Below are positions 6,048 through 55,254 of a stretch of DNA of 61,706 bases, piece by piece. The stretch covers positions 1 to 61,706 of the forward strand of contig JAQTQO010000004.1 in assembly GCA_028712155.1 (NCBI GenBank), read 5' to 3'. The notes below the pieces were generated by a model, which was given only the letters and a program-made list of their open reading frames with translations, ran no database searches and was not told where the DNA came from. The stretch's first letter is position 1; the number at the start of each line of letters is the position of its first letter. This DNA is from Patescibacteria group bacterium (GTDB lineage: Bacteria > Patescibacteriota > Patescibacteriia > Buchananbacterales > GWA2-38-13). The position numbers and the translations under genes were made by a program.

Positions 6048-6088
6048 GTCAATCGACGTGTTCGTAGCAATGTGAGAGGGCAGTGAAT

Positions 6089-6892
6089 ATGAAAACTATC
6101 ATCATCACCAAATCTCGGGTACGCCTACCGCGCAGGCAAAAAGACTCGCGCAAAGGCGACAACGGCCGCGTGCTGGTCATCGGCGGCTCGCCCGAATACA
6201 TCGGCGCGCCGGCATTGGCGGGCATTGCGGCGCTGCGTTCGGGCGCCGACTCGGTCGTAGTCGCGGCACCGGAGAAAGTCGCCTGGGCGATCAATTGTCT
6301 GTCGCCGGATTTGGTGACAAAAAAATTGCCGGGCCGATTCCTCAGCCCGCGCCACTTCTCTGCACTTCAGAAAATGGCGGCTACCGCTGACTGCGTGCTG
6401 ATTGGCGGTGGCGTACACCCCCGGCCGCCGTCGCTTGCCTTGATAAAAAAATTCGCCGGCACATTTGCCGGGTTCAAAATCCTGGATGCCGCGGCAATCA
6501 CCGCGTTTGATCGCGTCAAACTACGGAATGCGATTCTGACACCCAATACTTGCGAATACGAACACCTGCAGCAGTATGCCGACATTCGTCAGCTGGTGGC
6601 ACGCGGAAATATTGTCGTTGCCAAAAGCTGGCGGACAACAATTTATTCAATGCACGGCACCTACGAAAACCGCACGGGCAATCCAGGGTTAACCAAAGCC
6701 GGCACCGGCGACGTACTCGCCGGCCTGATCGCCGGTTTCACTGCGCAGTCTAAAGACCAGCTGCAATCGGCCATCAATGCCGTCTACTATCTCGGATTAC
6801 TTGGGGATGCGTTACTGAAAAAGAAAAAGGGGTATTTCTACCTCGCGTCGGATCTCGCCCAAGAAACACGGCGCATCAAAACCGAAAAATAA
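6089..6892 (+). CDS. nnrD: ADP/ATP-dependent NAD(P)H-hydrate dehydratase
   Basis: GDNGRVLVIGGS and GTGDVLAGLIAG motifs. ATG 6089 has SD GAGAGGG (the track start is GTG 6083). Confidence 0.85.
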   Translation: MKTIIITKSRVRLPRRQKDSRKGDNGRVLVIGGSPEYIGAPALAGIAALRSGADSVVVAAPEKVAWAINCLSPDLVTKKLPGRFLSPRHFSALQKMAATADCVLIGGGVHPRPPSLALIKKFAGTFAGFKILDAAAITAFDRVKLRNAILTPNTCEYEHLQQYADIRQLVARGNIVVAKSWRTTIYSMHGTYENRTGNPGLTKAGTGDVLAGLIAGFTAQSKDQLQSAINAVYYLGLLGDALLKKKKGYFYLASDLAQETRRIKTEK

Positions 6893-6929
6893 AGAAAGGA
6901 GCCTCGAAAAGCAAATGCTCTCGAGGCTC
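6885..6929 (-). terminator. intrinsic terminator of the minus-strand RNA gene
   Basis: GAGCCUCGA/UCGAGGCUC stem followed on the minus strand by CUUUCUUUAUUUUU. It overlaps the nnrD stop. Confidence 0.65.
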
Positions 6930-7260
6930 GATAGGCAAGGTTTTGTATCCTTGAAACTTCCGGCACAGGCAGTAAAGCTGCCTCCCGGAGATCCTCGCGA
7001 CCATGGGGCCGCGGACGATCCAGAAACATCTCGGTGCTGGGGTACTCTCTCCTCGATAACAACCGAGGATAGTGCCTCACGCACAGGGGGAATCTATTTG
7101 TTCCCAACCTTTCCCGATGTTCCCTTTATCCCCGGAACGTTCAGTAAACTCACGTGGACCGATACTCCTGCCTTGCCCAAGCAGGTAGGGGTTACTAGTT
7201 TGCCACCGTGGTGGCAGGTAACCCAGCCCAGAGTTTAAAAGAACAGGGGAATGAATCGTG
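6893..7260 (-). ncRNA. unassigned ~365-nt structured RNA (family not recognised)
   Basis: Own consensus promoter and terminator, many local helices, no credible ORF. Confidence 0.55.
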
Positions 7261-7266
7261 ATAGTA

Positions 7267-7295
7267 ATAATACACCATTATTGAAATTTTGTCAA
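7267..7295 (-). promoter_or_regulatory. sigma70-like promoter of the RNA gene
   Basis: Minus strand TTGACA-17 nt-TATTAT. Confidence 0.65.
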
Positions 7296-7379
7296 GAGAA
7301 ATTCAGAATATTTATCTATTTTTTGCCTTCATTGACAGAAAATATATACATCATCAAATATTGAAAAATTCCATAACAT

Positions 7380-8090
7380 ATGGGAGACACAATCGCGCCA
7401 CCACCAATTGCTCCCCGAAAAGATCAAGTTGCGGGAAATGGCCAACCGGATGCAAACGGGTGGCAAAAATGGGTACGGAATGGCGCTTTTTCCCTCGCCT
7501 TTGGAGTCACGGTAGTACTTTCCAGCGCCAATATCGTGATTTTTAACCCCGCAATTCAGCAGCTGATTTTGACCACCGCGCCGGTCGCCGAGTTCAGTGT
7601 GCAAGAACGGCTGCAGGAGACACAAACGCTCCTACGATATTTCCGCACGCGCAACGATCACTTGCTCTCCGGCTACTCCGAAGATGAGCGTGCGCACCTC
7701 GCGGAAGTCGCCGGCGTATTCAACGTCGGACGATGGCTGCTCATCGTCAGCGCGACCGTGACGGCGCTGCTGGCGGGGTGGACCCTCCGTCGCTACGGCT
7801 GGACGGCGCTGCGCCGGATGATTTGGCACGCGGCCCGCATCTCCGGCTGGGTATTTTTGGTGCTCCTGGCGCTGGGACTCTTGAACTTCGAACAATGGTT
7901 TGTCGGCATCCATCCGCTGCTGTTTCACGCCGCACCCTGGGCCTTTAACCCTGAGGTGAGCAAACTGGTCAACATTTTTCCTGAAGAATATTTCCGCAAC
8001 GCAACCGCGGCGATTCTCATCATGACCGCAGCCGTCAGCTGGGGGCTGCGACTGGCCTCCAAAGAGTCAACAAAACGGCGCCCGGTGTAA
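7380..8090 (+). CDS. TIGR01906/DUF1461-like integral membrane protein
   Basis: Four or five TM helices. Loop with E..H..EV motif (EDERAHLAEVAGVF) typical of the family. Confidence 0.5.
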   Translation: MGDTIAPPPIAPRKDQVAGNGQPDANGWQKWVRNGAFSLAFGVTVVLSSANIVIFNPAIQQLILTTAPVAEFSVQERLQETQTLLRYFRTRNDHLLSGYSEDERAHLAEVAGVFNVGRWLLIVSATVTALLAGWTLRRYGWTALRRMIWHAARISGWVFLVLLALGLLNFEQWFVGIHPLLFHAAPWAFNPEVSKLVNIFPEEYFRNATAAILIMTAAVSWGLRLASKESTKRRPV

Positions 8091-28889: not shown

Positions 28890-29056
28890 AACGCACGCTC
28901 CTTTCCGACTTACCCCGATTCTTCGGGGATGGGTGGGTGGCGAACGGAAACGGCTCTGCGCCGCTCGGCCCGCCAGGGGAGAATCCGCCCAAGGCGGATA
29001 AGAACATTTTGGTTGTCAACGTGCAACCAACGCCGAGACCACCTCAGCGATTTGAA

Positions 29057-29085
29057 ACGCTACGCCGATTATCCAAAAAAGTCAA
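29057..29085 (-). promoter_or_regulatory. sigma70-like promoter giving a ~160-nt structured leader
   Basis: Minus strand TTGACT-17 nt-TAGCGT. Confidence 0.4.
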
Positions 29086-29104
29086 CTCGAGCTCTTACTA
29101 CATT

Positions 29105-29182
29105 CCCTCTCCCCGCGGTGGGAAAGGGCGAGGGTGAGGGGGAAAAACACCACCCTCTCCCTACCCTCCCCCATCGAGGGGG
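29105..29182. other. G-tract/C-tract palindromic element (G4-capable on both strands)
   Basis: GGGAAAGGGCGAGGGTGAGGGGG, then CCCTCTCCCTACCCTCCCCC, then CCCCC-ATCGA-GGGGG hairpin. Confidence 0.6.
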
Positions 29183-29288
29183 AGGAAATCAAGGAAATAT
29201 TCCATATATATCCTGAGTCCTATCAAAGGACTTCTATGGGGAAGCCCTTCGACTCCGCCCCGCGGCGAGGCTGCGCTCAGGGAATATT

Positions 29289-34727: not shown

Positions 34728-34833
34728 ATCCCCACACCTTCCTGCAGGGTAAAATTGAATCACAGGAAAGATATTTATGGCGCCCATTTATCCCCACTGT
34801 AAGCCGCGAAATATTCTGGAAAGGTGTGGGGAT
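34728..34833 (-). promoter_or_regulatory. leader inverted repeat that can sequester the Rrf2 ribosome-binding region
   Basis: ATCCCCACACCTTCC (34728-34742) against GGAAAGGTGTGGGGAT (34818-34833). Confidence 0.45.
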
Positions 34834-34855
34834 GAACTCCTACTAATTTAGTGCT

Positions 34856-34884
34856 AGTTTATCGCGAGTCAAAAATCTTGTCAA
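34856..34884 (-). promoter_or_regulatory. sigma70-like promoter of the suf operon
   Basis: Minus strand TTGACA-17 nt-TAAACT. Confidence 0.6.
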
Positions 34885-34944
34885 CTACAAAAATGACCGC
34901 GCGGGAGAGCACGGTCACAACGGCATCGGAAACGCAAGGGACAG

Positions 34945-35349
34945 TCACCTATTCGCACCCACCAGCGTGGCGCAGAAGAATTCCGTCGGAGAGATCACCC
35001 GGGATCGGCGCAGAATGTACAACACTCGGATAAGCTGCCATACCGGCACGTCCCGCAATAACGTAAAACCTCCGTGGATCACCCAATCCGGGTGCGATGG
35101 CGTCTGCCAGTCCCAAAACGAAAAATTCGACCACCACCGTGCCGGGCGAAACCAACCCCAGAAAAAGAGTCCGTTACCGCGAACGTACTTGGGTTGTCCC
35201 TCATCCAACAGGGTGATGGAGCAATAGCACGTCCGGTGCACCAGGTAGACCACGCACCGGCCCAAAGAGTCGGTCTGACCATACCGCCGAAGCTTGCGCA
35301 AACCGGATCGCACCAGTTGGGCTAAATATTGCTGAAAAGAACGATGCAT
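34945..35349 (-). CDS. hypothetical Trp/Arg-rich protein (134 aa)
   Basis: ATG with SD GGAGG 5 nt upstream. No recognised domain. Confidence 0.5.
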   Translation of the reverse strand: MHRSFQQYLAQLVRSGLRKLRRYGQTDSLGRCVVYLVHRTCYCSITLLDEGQPKYVRGNGLFFWGWFRPARWWSNFSFWDWQTPSHPDWVIHGGFTLLRDVPVWQLIRVLYILRRSRVISPTEFFCATLVGANR

Positions 35350-35496
35350 GTTTCGCCTCCAAGGTACAAACTAAAAAATTCTGTCCGCACCGCCTTTGAT
35401 ATCTTACACCACACCAATATAAAAAAATACGGCTCGGCCCTCTCTCTTTGAACTAGATAAATTTATTTAATTTAAGATAAAAAATGGATATTATTA

Positions 35497-35525
35497 TTGA
35501 CAAGTATTGCATTATATGCTAATGT
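35497..35525 (+). promoter_or_regulatory. extended -10 sigma70 promoter
   Basis: TTGACA-17 nt-TAATGT, preceded by TGc. Confidence 0.6.
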
Positions 35526-35531
35526 CACAAA

Positions 35532-35700
35532 TTAAAATAAAAAATCGGCCTTTGCTGGACAGGCATGGTATATCCAGCACGCAACCGAAAGGGAGGCAAG
35601 GAGTGCTCCTTCTTCCAGGATTCCGTTAAGGCCTTCGGGCCAAACCCCCGCCCTGACGACGCATAAGCAAACGTCGTGAATCAGGGCGGGGGTTTTCATT
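35532..35700 (+). ncRNA. candidate ~170-nt small RNA convergent with glnA, unassigned
   Basis: Consensus promoter, internal helices (GGCCUU/AAGGCC, CUGG/CCAG, UUCG-capped GGCC/GGCC) and a strong terminator. Confidence 0.5.
35645..35700. terminator. strong hairpin terminator (sRNA on plus, probably also glnA on minus)
   Basis: CCCCCGCCCTGA...TCAGGGCGGGGG, followed by TTTTCATTTT. Confidence 0.75.
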
Positions 35701-35724
35701 TTCCCGGGATTATTTTTTTTGGAC

Positions 35725-51128: not shown

Positions 51129-51136
51129 ATAGGTGT

Positions 51137-51209
51137 GGGCCCGTAGCTCAATGGTTAGAGCATCCGGCTTATATCCGGCAGGTTGGGGGTTCGAGTCCCT
51201 CCGGGCCCA
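51137..51209 (+). tRNA. tRNA-Ile, anticodon UAU (no encoded CCA)
   Basis: Hand-folded cloverleaf. 7-bp acceptor GGGCCCG/CGGGCCC, D arm GCTC/GAGC, anticodon loop CTTATAT, T arm GGGGG-TTCGAGT-CCCTC. Confidence 0.85.
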
Positions 51210-51232
51210 ATTTCAATAATTGTCCTAACGAA

Positions 51233-55177: not shown

Positions 55178-55254
55178 GGGCGGTTAGCTCAGTTGGTTAG
55201 AGCGCGTCGTTGACGTCGACGATGTCGGGGGTTCGAGTCCCTCACCGCCCACCA
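55178..55254 (+). tRNA. tRNA-Val, anticodon GAC (CCA encoded)
   Basis: Acceptor GGGCGGT/ACCGCCC, anticodon stem CGTCG/CGACG, loop TTGACGT, T arm GGGGG-TTCGAGT-CCCTC, ACCA end. Confidence 0.9.

What the first reader, a model, noticed from the sequence alone, without database searches (positions are those of the whole stretch)
6885..7295. Orphan ~365-nt structured RNA gene with consensus promoter and terminator; family not recognisable
The 487-bp gap between nnrD (stop 6892) and the CDS at 7380 is the largest non-coding stretch in this tightly packed window. The minus strand carries TTGACA (7295-7290), a 17-nt spacer and TATTAT (7272-7267). About 365 nt downstream lies a hairpin GAGCCUCGA...UCGAGGCUC (6929-6899) followed by CUUUCUUUAUUUUU, which overlaps the nnrD stop codon. 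Between them are many local helices: GCCACC/GGUGGC nested in GGGUUAC/GUAACCC, CCUGC/GCAGG, CCUCG/CGAGG and GGCAG/CUGCC. A plausible long-range helix pairs UCUUUUAAACU (5' region) with AGUUUCAAGGA (3' region). The track ORFs here have no SD and run through the terminator into nnrD. The size fits RNase P RNA or tmRNA. I see only weak look-alikes of the RNase P P4 strands (GGGAAAGGUUGGG and ACAAAACCUUGCCUAUCG), and they sit in the wrong topology. There is no tRNA-like T-arm or ACCA end and no SRP GGAAGCAGC motif. It is therefore either a very divergent housekeeping RNA or a new large structured RNA.
Basis: seen in the sequence. Interest (0 to 1): 0.7.

Follow-up and report, generated by a model that had tools for sequence, protein, structure and literature searches.

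The report
New structured RNA gene in Parcubacteria
The 487-bp gap next to nnrD holds a real, independently transcribed ~370-nt non-coding RNA whose fold, including a pseudoknot, is conserved in two related uncultured Parcubacteria but matches no known RNA family, so it is a candidate new RNA class of unknown function.

Summary
On the minus strand, a TTGACA-17-TATTAT promoter (7295-7267) and a hairpin plus U-tract terminator (6929-6885) bracket a ~370-nt non-coding stretch. It folds far better than shuffles (z = -5.0).

The organism is a CPR/Parcubacteria bacterium. I found two diverged homologues (L114 ~435 nt, L112 ~300 nt). Both lie convergent with nnrD and share the conserved promoter and a +1 ACGAU start.

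The three RNAs are 45-59% identical in my alignment but share one architecture:
- P1 pairs the 5' end with an internal GRAUCGU.
- A long stem (H2-H5) ends in a three-way junction.
- Hairpin Hb carries an invariant GGCAAG loop.
- A hairpin (HT) with a loop resembling a tRNA T-loop is followed by an invariant CUUGCC, which can pair with the Hb loop as an H-type pseudoknot.

13 of 30 core pairs show compensatory changes.

No Rfam 15 family matches any of the three RNAs at E <= 10. That includes RNase P, tmRNA, SRP and 6S.

The RNA is absent from the same locus in seven other relatives, so it looks accessory. The verdict is a new structured ncRNA family of unknown function, based on only three distinct sequences.

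The parts
7290..7295 (-). -35 box TTGACA
   Evidence: TTGACA also precedes the L114 homologue.
7267..7272 (-). -10 box TATTAT, within the conserved GGTGTATWRT motif
   Evidence: L114 and L112 carry GGTGTATAGT at the same distance from ACGAU.
7253..7259 (-). P1 5' strand ACGAUUC, at the inferred transcription start (about 7259)
   Evidence: ACGAU lies 6-7 nt after the -10 box in all three RNAs. The pairing is shown.
7129..7250 (-). Domain I. H2 is 7250-7246/7133-7129. H3 is 7244-7241/7142-7139. H4 is 7237-7231/7151-7145. H5 is 7230-7225/7160-7155. These close a three-way junction.
   Evidence: The same helices appear in the independent MFE folds of the window RNA, L114 and L112. Compensatory changes are shown.
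7189..7224 (-). Hairpin Ha (GGGUUAC...GUAACCC with an inner UGCCAC/GUGGCA). Its length varies among the homologues.
7167..7185 (-). Hairpin Hb, CCUGC[UUGGGCAAG]GCAGG. The loop GGCAAG at 7177-7172 is the pseudoknot 5' strand.
   Evidence: 4 of 5 stem pairs are compensatory among the three RNAs. GGCAAG is invariant and occurs once per RNA.
7022..7128 (-). Domain II, a variable multi-hairpin insert.
   Evidence: Its length and sequence differ in L112 (about 40 nt) and L114 (about 95 nt).
7015..7021 (-). P1 3' strand GGAUCGU
   Evidence: It forms 7 bp with nt 1-7. It lies within an 11-nt match between the window RNA and L114; read from the sequences, this is CUGGAUCGUCC. The fold with P1 enforced is within 0.8 kcal/mol of the MFE.
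6956..7014 (-). Two variable 3' hairpins, including GGCAG/CUGCC
6936..6953 (-). Hairpin HT, CAAGG-AUACAAAA-CCUUG, with a T-loop-like loop.
   Evidence: L112 has GUUGG-UGAAAAU-CCAAC and L114 has AAGG-GUGAAAG-CCUU. Two to three stem pairs are compensatory.
6934..6939 (-). Pseudoknot 3' strand CUUGCC. In the window it overlaps the HT 3' strand by 4 nt.
   Evidence: It is invariant, occurs once per RNA and always lies directly 3' of HT. The duplex energy is -7.7 to -11.0 kcal/mol.
6885..6929 (-). Intrinsic terminator: a 12-bp hairpin at 6929-6899 followed by a U-tract that overlaps the nnrD stop codon
   Evidence: The homologues end in their own long GC hairpins followed by U-runs.

Best explanation
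This is a stand-alone gene for a ~370-nt trans-acting structured non-coding RNA. It founds a small, previously undescribed family in one Parcubacteria (CPR) lineage.

Shown:
- It has a sigma-70-type promoter, and an intrinsic terminator ends it.
- It is non-coding.
- Its architecture is shared with two diverged homologues. P1 closes a core made of a long irregular stem (H2-H5). That stem ends in a three-way junction with hairpins Ha and Hb. A variable domain II follows.
- After P1 comes a T-loop-like hairpin (HT), followed directly by CUUGCC.
- CUUGCC is complementary to the invariant GGCAAG in the Hb loop.

Inferred:
- Transcription starts at the ACGAU motif.
- GGCAAG and CUUGCC pair to form an H-type pseudoknot. 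Hb, the pseudoknot helix and HT could then stack coaxially into a rigid rod.
- Such a compact fold points to a protein-binding scaffold or a catalytic RNA. It does not point to a base-pairing sRNA or a cis-regulator.
- The RNA sits in a hypervariable gene island and is missing there in most close relatives. It is therefore probably an accessory function and not one of the universal housekeeping RNAs.

The biochemical function itself is not known.
For: - Promoter and terminator. L114 has an 11/12 promoter match. The GGTGTATWRT motif and a +1 ACGAU are conserved.
- Non-coding: codon score <= 0 and flat GC1/2/3. No ORF is conserved among the three RNAs, and L112 has at most 53 stop-free codons.
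- Structure: z = -4.99, -5.72 and -6.93 for the three RNAs. Their independent MFE folds give the same H2/H3/H4 stems and the same three-way junction with Ha and Hb.
- Covariation: the Hb stem changes completely in sequence but stays paired, with 4 of 5 pairs compensatory. HT has 2-3 of 5, H2 has 3 of 5 and P1 has 1 of 7.
- In my manual alignment, 30 core pairs are 96% canonical and 13 show double changes. With the 3' partners slid by 1-3 columns, 30-44% are canonical and 0-2 show double changes. RNAalifold recovers the helices.
- Pseudoknot: GGCAAG and CUUGCC each occur exactly once per RNA, in the Hb loop and directly after HT. The fold with P1 and the pseudoknot is energetically level with the MFE.
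- No known family: Rfam 15 gives nothing at gathering scores or at E <= 10 for any of the three RNAs. ARAGORN finds no tmRNA.
- Accessory: the RNA is absent from the nnrD-Lit interval in L001, L002, L113, L115, L116, L122 and L128, which carry other genes there.
Against: - There are only three distinct sequences, plus one identical copy (L081), and all come from close relatives.
- The alignment was made by hand to fit the structure, so the covariation counts lean towards it.
- MAFFT, nhmmer and a single-sequence covariance model do not align or find the members well. nhmmer fails between members. Model R1 finds L114 only at E = 0.16 and misses the window RNA.
- The pseudoknot strands are invariant, so the pairing is inferred from complementarity and not from covariation.
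- In the window RNA the HT 3' strand and the pseudoknot strand overlap by 4 nt, so both cannot form as drawn. An alternative 4-bp hairpin, GUUU/AAAC, would be needed.
- There are no expression data.
- Absence at one locus does not prove absence from those genomes.
- One metagenome scan and two viral-collection scans with motif patterns found no further members.
Confidence: 0.72

Rival explanations
1. It is a highly derived RNase P RNA. CPR bacteria are known to carry forms that Rfam cut-offs miss.
For: - Lui et al. 2021 (PMC8172020) found that 10 of 35 circular CPR genomes needed RF00010 thresholds lowered to about 5 bits, and that many helices were missing.
- The window RNA has GGAAAG-GUUGGG and ACAAAACCUUGCCUAUCG. 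From my memory of the E. coli M1 RNA sequence, these resemble CR-I (GGAAAGUCCGGG) and CR-V (ACAGAACCCGGCUUAUCG).
- The size and the stand-alone promoter and terminator fit.
Against: - No RNase P model of any class reaches E <= 10 on a 371-nt query, nor on either homologue.
- On reading the L112 and L114 sequences I could not find the CR-I look-alike.
- The CR-V look-alike is the loop and 3' strand of a local hairpin that covaries, plus the pseudoknot strand.
- The pseudoknot's 5' strand sits in a 9-10-nt hairpin loop, not in a P2-closed multiloop between P3 and P5.
- There are no S-domain motifs.
- The 5' end pairs with an internal segment, not with the 3' end.
- The RNA is absent at this locus in seven relatives.
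Confidence: 0.05
2. It is a tRNA-like or tmRNA-like RNA. HT plus the pseudoknot helix would mimic a T-arm stacked on an acceptor stem. RNase P and RNase Z would then process the transcript, and the RNA would act in translation or ribosome rescue.
For: - HT is a 5-bp stem with a 7-8-nt loop (UGAAAAU, GUGAAAG, AUACAAAA). This resembles the U-N-N-R-A form of the T-loop motif as I recall it from the literature.
- HT is followed with 0-1 nt spacing by the 6-nt strand of a helix. That is the same strand order as the 3' half of a tRNA.
- The size is close to that of tmRNA.
Against: - ARAGORN and the Rfam tmRNA and tRNA models find nothing.
- On reading the three sequences I found no G-U at the third pair, no GGUUCGA T-loop, no encoded CCA and no conserved tag reading frame. 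tblastx finds no shared ORF.
- The acceptor-like 5' strand is internal, in a hairpin loop.
- The patchy distribution does not fit an essential tmRNA.
Confidence: 0.05
3. It is a cis-acting or antisense element and not a trans-acting RNA. It could be an orphaned leader or riboswitch, or a convergent transcript whose main role is to terminate or modulate nnrD.
For: - The terminator overlaps or abuts the nnrD stop in the window and in L112.
- The RNA is always convergent with nnrD.
Against: - No ORF follows the RNA on its own strand in any of the three loci.
- In L114 a GIY-YIG gene separates it from nnrD.
- Only the terminator tail overlaps nnrD.
- About 300 nt of conserved architecture is far more than a terminator needs.
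- There is no riboswitch or T-box match in Rfam.
Confidence: 0.06
4. It is non-functional intergenic DNA, or the remnant of a decayed gene or mobile element, with a chance promoter and terminator.
For: - It lies in a hypervariable island next to selfish GIY-YIG and repeat elements.
- Very few homologues were found.
- Sequence identity among the members is low.
Against: - The promoter, +1 motif, helices with compensatory changes and two invariant complementary 6-mers are all kept while the surrounding sequence diverges to 45-59% identity.
- z-scores are -5 to -7 in all three members.
- There is no similarity to the proteins that occupy the interval in relatives.
Confidence: 0.06
5. It encodes a small protein. 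The candidates are the 107-aa plus-strand ORF at 6915-7238 and the 89-90-aa minus-strand ORFs.
For: - The ORFs exist.
- The plus-strand ORF has an AAGGAG about 13 nt upstream of its ATG (read).
Against: - Codon scores are -0.22 to -0.01 against 0.41 +/- 0.15 for real genes, and GC is flat by codon position.
- The ATG lies in the terminator loop.
- The minus-strand ORFs run through the terminator.
- No ORF or tblastx similarity is shared with the L112 or L114 RNAs.
- No gene was called there in the identical Logan contig.
Confidence: 0.02

Closest known systems
Bacterial RNase P RNA (Rfam RF00010/RF00011), including the diverged CPR forms of Lui et al. 2021
   Same: The size is about 300-440 nt. 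It is a stand-alone gene with a strong promoter and terminator. It has a long-range pseudoknot-type helix near the 3' part. In the window RNA only, it has short look-alikes of CR-I and CR-V.
   Different: No covariance-model match appears even at E <= 10. The look-alikes are not conserved in the homologues. The pseudoknot's 5' strand is a hairpin loop and not a strand between P3 and P5. The 5' end pairs internally and not with the 3' end. There is no S-domain. The distribution is patchy.
tmRNA (SsrA) and pseudoknotted tRNA-like structures (for example the TYMV TLS and bacterial YrlA Y RNAs)
   Same: A 5-bp hairpin with a 7-nt loop resembling a tRNA T-loop is followed immediately by one strand of a roughly 6-bp helix. 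That helix is formed through a pseudoknot, which gives a possible acceptor/T-arm-like stack.
   Different: On reading the sequences I found no 3' CCA, no G-U identity pair, no canonical GGUUCGA loop, no tag ORF and no Ro-binding stem. ARAGORN and Rfam are negative. The helix partner is internal and not the 5' end.
Orphan large structured bacterial ncRNAs (raiA, OLE, ROOL, GOLLD, HEARO)
   Same: It is large, elaborately folded and independently transcribed. It is conserved in structure more than in sequence, patchy in distribution and of unknown function.
   Different: It has no sequence or structure match to any of them (Rfam 15 is negative). It is smaller than OLE, ROOL and GOLLD. It is known so far only from three sequences of one Parcubacteria lineage. 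It has no associated protein gene such as IscB.

Membership tests
RNase P RNA (bacterial type A/B, archaeal, type T) | Match to the family covariance model, even a weak one. CPR forms were recovered at >= 5 bits with RF00010. | tested here: not met
   cmscan lists no RNase P family at E <= 10 on 371 nt of the window, on 801 nt, or on the L114 and L112 RNAs. Scores below the E = 10 line are not shown, so a hit of about 5-10 bits cannot be excluded.
RNase P RNA (bacterial type A/B, archaeal, type T) | P4 helix formed by the conserved CR-I (GGAAAGUCC...) and CR-V (ACAGAA...GGCUUA) strands, kept in relatives | tested here: not met
   I found the look-alikes only in the window RNA, by reading the sequences. 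ACAAAACCUUGCC is the HT loop, the HT stem and the pseudoknot strand. HT covaries (CAAGG/CCUUG against GUUGG/CCAAC).
RNase P RNA (bacterial type A/B, archaeal, type T) | P1 joins the 5' and 3' ends, with the order P2-P3-P4-P5/S-domain-P15-P2'-P4'-P1' | tested here: not met
   The 5' end pairs with an internal GRAUCGU that lies 110-200 nt before the 3' end. Domain I is a single long stem with a three-way junction.
RNase P RNA (bacterial type A/B, archaeal, type T) | One copy in essentially every genome of the lineage | not testable with these tools
   Only loci around nnrD could be fetched. The RNA is absent there in seven relatives, but it could lie elsewhere in those genomes.
tmRNA | tRNA-like domain (acceptor stem with G-U, GGUUCGA T-arm, 3' CCA) detected by ARAGORN or Rfam | tested here: not met
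   ARAGORN finds two tRNAs only. No tmRNA model reaches E <= 10.
tmRNA | Conserved tag reading frame with a resume codon and a stop | tested here: not met
   No ORF or tblastx similarity is shared among the three RNAs. A systematic tag-frame scan was not run.
SRP RNA / 6S RNA | Match to the family covariance model (domain IV motif for SRP RNA; rod with a central bubble for 6S RNA) | tested here: not met
   There are no hits at E <= 10. The fold is branched, not a rod.
Riboswitch / T-box / other 5' leader | Regulated ORF downstream on the same strand | tested here: not met
   After the terminator comes the convergent nnrD in the window and L112, and a plus-strand GIY-YIG gene in L114. Rfam has no match.
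Known orphan large ncRNAs in Rfam (OLE, ROOL, GOLLD, raiA, HEARO and others) | Match to the family covariance model | tested here: not met
   All 4227 Rfam 15 models were searched at E <= 10 against the three RNAs. Only chance miRNA and lncRNA hits appeared.
Proposed new family (nnrD-adjacent RNA) | +1 ACGAU pairing with an internal GRAUCGU; the H2-H5 stem with a three-way junction; an Hb loop GGCAAG complementary to a CUUGCC that follows a T-loop-like hairpin; its own promoter and terminator | tested here: met
   All of these features are present in the window RNA, L114 and L112. Caveat: there are three sequences and the alignment is manual.

The most novel reading that the evidence does not exclude
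The RNA is the first glimpse of a new class of catalytic or RNP-forming RNA in CPR bacteria. Its core would be a coaxial Hb-pseudoknot-T-loop rod that mimics the acceptor/T-arm of tRNA. It could therefore engage tRNA-handling machinery (RNase P, RNase Z, the CCA-adding enzyme or the ribosome). Alternatively, it could recognise the tRNA elbow, as the T-loop modules of RNase P and T-boxes do.
Probability: 0.12. Interest if true: 0.85.

Novelty: categorically new. Interest (0 to 1): 0.62.

Why it matters
CPR/Patescibacteria have tiny genomes, and almost nothing is known about their non-coding RNAs beyond rRNA, tRNA and diverged RNase P. A 300-440-nt RNA with a strong promoter, a conserved multi-domain fold and a pseudoknot is a large investment for such a genome. 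RNAs of this size and complexity have repeatedly turned out to be ribozymes or the cores of RNP machines.

If the family proves wider than three sequences, it would be a new large structured RNA class in an uncultured phylum and a concrete target for structure and function work.

This case also shows that motif look-alikes of RNase P in a single sequence can mislead. Homologues reassigned those bases to other helices.

Tried and rejected
- **RNase P.** I dropped this after the Rfam negatives and after the homologues showed those bases in H4, HT and the pseudoknot.
- **Synteny in GTDB genomes.** The search through nnrD gave 80 loci, mostly DPANN archaea. The three closest CPR loci lack the RNA.
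- **Lit protein search.** It found only the window's own protein and one 50%-identical hit. That hit's 1.1-kb contig stops at a homologous-looking promoter.
- **Metagenome scan.** It used GGAAAGGTTGG...ACARAACCTTG, a pattern designed on the RNase P idea. It gave 9 hits with no extended similarity to the RNA. The one I inspected lies inside a 1269-aa ORF that I read as a YD-repeat protein.
- **Viral-collection scans.** One gave 20 hits, with no extended similarity by nhmmer and about the number expected by chance. The other gave 3 hits, and the one I inspected was a chance match.
- **Phage and plasmid collections.** blastn found no match.
- **nhmmer and blastn.** The window RNA, and a 3-sequence profile, were searched against all held loci. 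No further members appeared, and nhmmer does not even link L112 with L114.
- **Covariance models and MAFFT.** The single-sequence model R1 built from L112 finds L114 at E = 0.16 and does not find the window RNA. MAFFT alignments (A2, A3, A6) misregister Hb and H4, so they could not feed a better model. I aligned by hand instead.
- **More nnrD contexts.** L113, L115-L124 and L128 have no RNA.
- **Repeats.** The RNA has no copy or repeat elsewhere in the window.
- **Literature.** Searches for a described CPR ncRNA of this kind found nothing relevant beyond Lui et al..
Full report
**1. The observation**

- The minus strand of 6885-7295 carries TTGACA (7295-7290), a 17-nt spacer and TATTAT (7272-7267). 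This matches 11 of 12 consensus positions. A 12-bp hairpin at 6929-6899 is followed by CTTTCTTTATTTTT. The U-tract overlaps the stop codon of the plus-strand nnrD gene (6083-6892, Pfam Carb_kinase).
- The divergent neighbour at 7380-8090 is a Lit-family membrane protein. TypA and QueA follow it.
- The 378-nt stretch folds to -153.7 kcal/mol, against -122.8 +/- 6.2 for shuffles (z = -4.99). Against 820 tiles of the same window, corrected for GC, it lies 1.8-2.4 SD below expectation and ranks about 7th.
- All ORFs in the gap look non-coding. They score <= 0 per codon, against 0.41 +/- 0.15 for 30 real genes, and GC is flat by codon position at 0.56/0.56/0.54 against 0.62/0.45/0.70.
- The gap is the largest credible non-coding stretch. 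A nominal 989-bp gap at 34736-35724 holds a 134-aa ORF with a GGAGG ribosome-binding site. A 765-bp gap is an artefact of my filter.

**2. Known families**

- Rfam 15 at gathering scores finds only two tRNAs in the window.
- With permissive filters and E <= 10, on 801 nt and then on 371 nt, no RNase P, tmRNA, SRP, 6S, riboswitch or large-ncRNA family appears. ARAGORN finds no tmRNA.
- This matters because CPR RNase P RNAs are known to be missed at normal cut-offs (Lui et al. 2021, PMC8172020). Here, however, nothing is listed even far below the cut-offs.

**3. Organism and relatives**

- nnrD places the window in the Parcubacteria/Paceibacterota. The best GTDB loci are 78% (L001) and 69% identical (L002, Parcubacteria bacterium Gr01-1014_31). 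L002 is syntenic for TerC, nnrD, Lit and TypA.
- In L001 and L002 the nnrD-Lit interval holds protein genes and not the RNA.
- An identical copy of the locus exists in a Logan assembly (L081).
- A protein search with nnrD gave a cluster of 75-80%-identical relatives, and I fetched their contigs. Two carry an unannotated stretch in the same place and orientation as the window RNA, convergent with nnrD:
  - L114:2498-2955(-), about 435 nt, with a GIY-YIG gene inserted between it and nnrD.
  - L112:3505-3823(-), about 300 nt, directly abutting nnrD.
- L114 has TTGACA-16-TATAGT, an 11/12 match. L112's contig ends inside the same GGTGTATAGT -10 motif. In all three, ACGAU lies 6-7 nt after the -10 box.
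- Both homologues end in long GC hairpins plus U-runs. They fold with z = -5.72 and -6.93 and have no Rfam match.
- L082 is a 1.1-kb contig with a 50%-identical Lit gene. It ends in what looks, by eye, like a related promoter pointing off the contig, so it may hold a fourth member.

**4. Shared architecture**

Coordinates below use n for the position in the window RNA, with n = 1 at 7259. Window coordinate = 7260 - n. The independent MFE folds of the three RNAs, together with my manual pairing of conserved strands, give these elements:

- **P1:** ACGAUUC (n1-7) pairs with GGAUCGU (n239-245), 7 bp in each RNA. Column 6 reads U-G, C-G and U-A. The MFE predicts P1 only for L112. I assigned it by hand in the window RNA and L114, where the MFE draws other pairings. 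Forcing P1 in the window RNA costs only 0.8 kcal/mol.
- **H2:** UCCCC/GGGGA. The homologues have GCCUG/CAGGU and ACCU/AGGU.
- **H3:** GUUC/GAAC. The homologues have GUUCAUU/GAUGGAC.
- **H4:** UAAACUC/GAGUUUA. The homologues have CUUCGAUUG/CAGUCGAAG and GCUAGACGG/CGGUCGAGC.
- **H5:** closes a three-way junction with the variable hairpin Ha.
- **Hb:** its stem is CCUGC/GCAGG, CUCCA/UGGAG or CGCUA/UAGCG, so 4 of 5 pairs are compensatory. Its loop always contains GGCAAGG.
- **Domain II:** a variable insert that follows domain I and is closed by P1.
- **HT:** a hairpin after P1. It is CAAGG-AUACAAAA-CCUUG in the window RNA, GUUGG-UGAAAAU-CCAAC in L112 and AAGG-GUGAAAG-CCUU in L114. The loop resembles a T-loop.
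- **CUUGCC:** follows HT directly.
- **Pseudoknot:** GGCAAG and CUUGCC each occur exactly once in each RNA and are perfectly complementary. Only 0-1 nt separates GGCAAG from the Hb 3' strand. This is the geometry of an H-type pseudoknot whose stems stack. HT would stack on the far end.

Supporting numbers:

- The pseudoknot duplex is worth -7.7 to -11 kcal/mol. A fold with P1 and the pseudoknot is level with the MFE.
- In my alignment (pairwise identity 45-59%), RNAalifold recovers H2-H5, Ha and Hb.
- The 30 core pairs are 96% canonical and 13 show double changes. With the 3' partners slid by 1-3 columns, 30-44% are canonical and 0-2 show double changes.
- The alignment was fitted by hand to the helices. 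These numbers therefore lean towards the structure and rest on three sequences.

**5.

Two are Ha and Hb, and the other two lie in variable parts.
- The long-range helix UCUUUUAAACU/AGUUUCAAGGA is complementary in the window RNA. Its halves, however, belong to H4 and HT, which recur in the homologues with other sequences.
- The 'P4 3' strand' ACAAAACCUUGCC is the HT loop and stem plus the pseudoknot strand.
- GGGAAAGGUUGGG lies in the variable domain II. On reading L112 and L114 I found no counterpart.
- RNase P membership therefore fails on the model match, on P4 and on topology.
- tmRNA fails on ARAGORN and Rfam and on the absence of a shared ORF. On reading the sequences I also saw no CCA end or G-U identity pair.
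- A leader or riboswitch fails because no ORF follows on the same strand in any of the three loci.

**6. Distribution**

Among the relatives examined, the nnrD-Lit interval holds different cargo:

- the RNA: window, L112, L114
- GIY-YIG genes flanked by roughly 30-nt hairpin repeats: L001, L114, L115
- DUF2905 plus a ferric-reductase-like protein: L113, L128
- a Na+/H+ exchanger: L116-L120
- a 321-aa membrane protein: L002, L122

The RNA is thus one cargo of a variable island. That argues for an accessory role, although I could not search the rest of those genomes.

**7. Further homologue searches**

All further searches failed:

- blastn and nhmmer against all held loci
- one metagenome scan and two viral-collection scans with motif patterns, which gave no hits with extended similarity to the RNA
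- the phage and plasmid collections

**8. Conclusion**

The finding is a real, independently transcribed, structured non-coding RNA. It founds a small family that is not in Rfam 15, and I could not find it in the searchable literature.

The most likely mode of action is a compact pseudoknotted scaffold that acts in trans with proteins or as a catalyst. This is inference from size, fold complexity and the lack of any cis target. The T-arm-like hairpin stacked on a pseudoknot helix hints at tRNA mimicry or tRNA recognition, but that is speculation.

Confidence that it is a genuine new structured RNA gene is about 0.7. Confidence in any specific function is low.

Noticed in passing
window 51136-51210 (+): A tRNA-Ile gene with anticodon UAU (TAT) reads AUA directly, instead of using a lysidine-modified CAU tRNA. 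This is an uncommon arrangement in bacteria. A tRNA-Val(GAC) lies at 55178-55254.
   Followed up: no
window 28890-29288; L001 6430-6480 and 6900-7010: A 399-bp intergenic region between an IscU/NifU-like gene and the next gene holds GC-rich CCUCCCC...GGGGAGG hairpin repeats resembling REP (repetitive extragenic palindrome) elements. It is the strongest GC-adjusted folding outlier of the window, at -3.9 SD. Similar repeats occur in the relative L001. Its only Rfam hits are spurious miRNA-like matches.
   Followed up: partly
nnrD-Lit interval: window 6893-7379; L001 4810-7072; L002 4801-5700; L113, L115, L116, L122, L128: The interval between nnrD and Lit is a hypervariable island in this Parcubacteria lineage. 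Different relatives carry the RNA, GIY-YIG genes, DUF2905 plus a ferric-reductase-like protein, a Na+/H+ exchanger, a response regulator or a 321-aa membrane protein.
   Followed up: partly
L115 1060-1100 and 1395-1430; L114 2405-2450; L001 5130-5180: Small GIY-YIG genes next to nnrD are flanked by copies of a roughly 30-nt hairpin repeat (GTCATTGCGAGCGCCGCGCGAAGCAATCT and variants). This suggests a mobile cassette. The same repeat seems to supply the C-terminal 'RGAERRSNL' tail of one nnrD homologue, P0042.
   Followed up: no
L004-L080 and P0031-P0122: Outside its own CPR clade, the closest relatives of this bacterial nnrD are overwhelmingly DPANN archaea (Woesearchaeota/Nanoarchaeota) at 40-50% identity. 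This hints at gene exchange between the two groups of ultra-small organisms.
   Followed up: no
L112 3823, L114 2992, L082 1 (contig ends): Three independent Logan assemblies all break at or within about 30 nt of the RNA's promoter. This may reflect an AT-rich low-coverage stretch or a repeated promoter sequence.
   Followed up: no
window 34736-35724: This is a 989-bp stretch without a codon-typical gene, between glnA and an Rrf2-family regulator. It holds a glnA terminator hairpin, a very AT-rich segment (about 42% GC in the 345-nt tile starting at 35401) and a 134-aa Trp-rich ORF (34945-35349, minus strand). The ORF has a GGAGG ribosome-binding site and its own terminator. It is probably an atypical or recently acquired gene.
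   Followed up: partly
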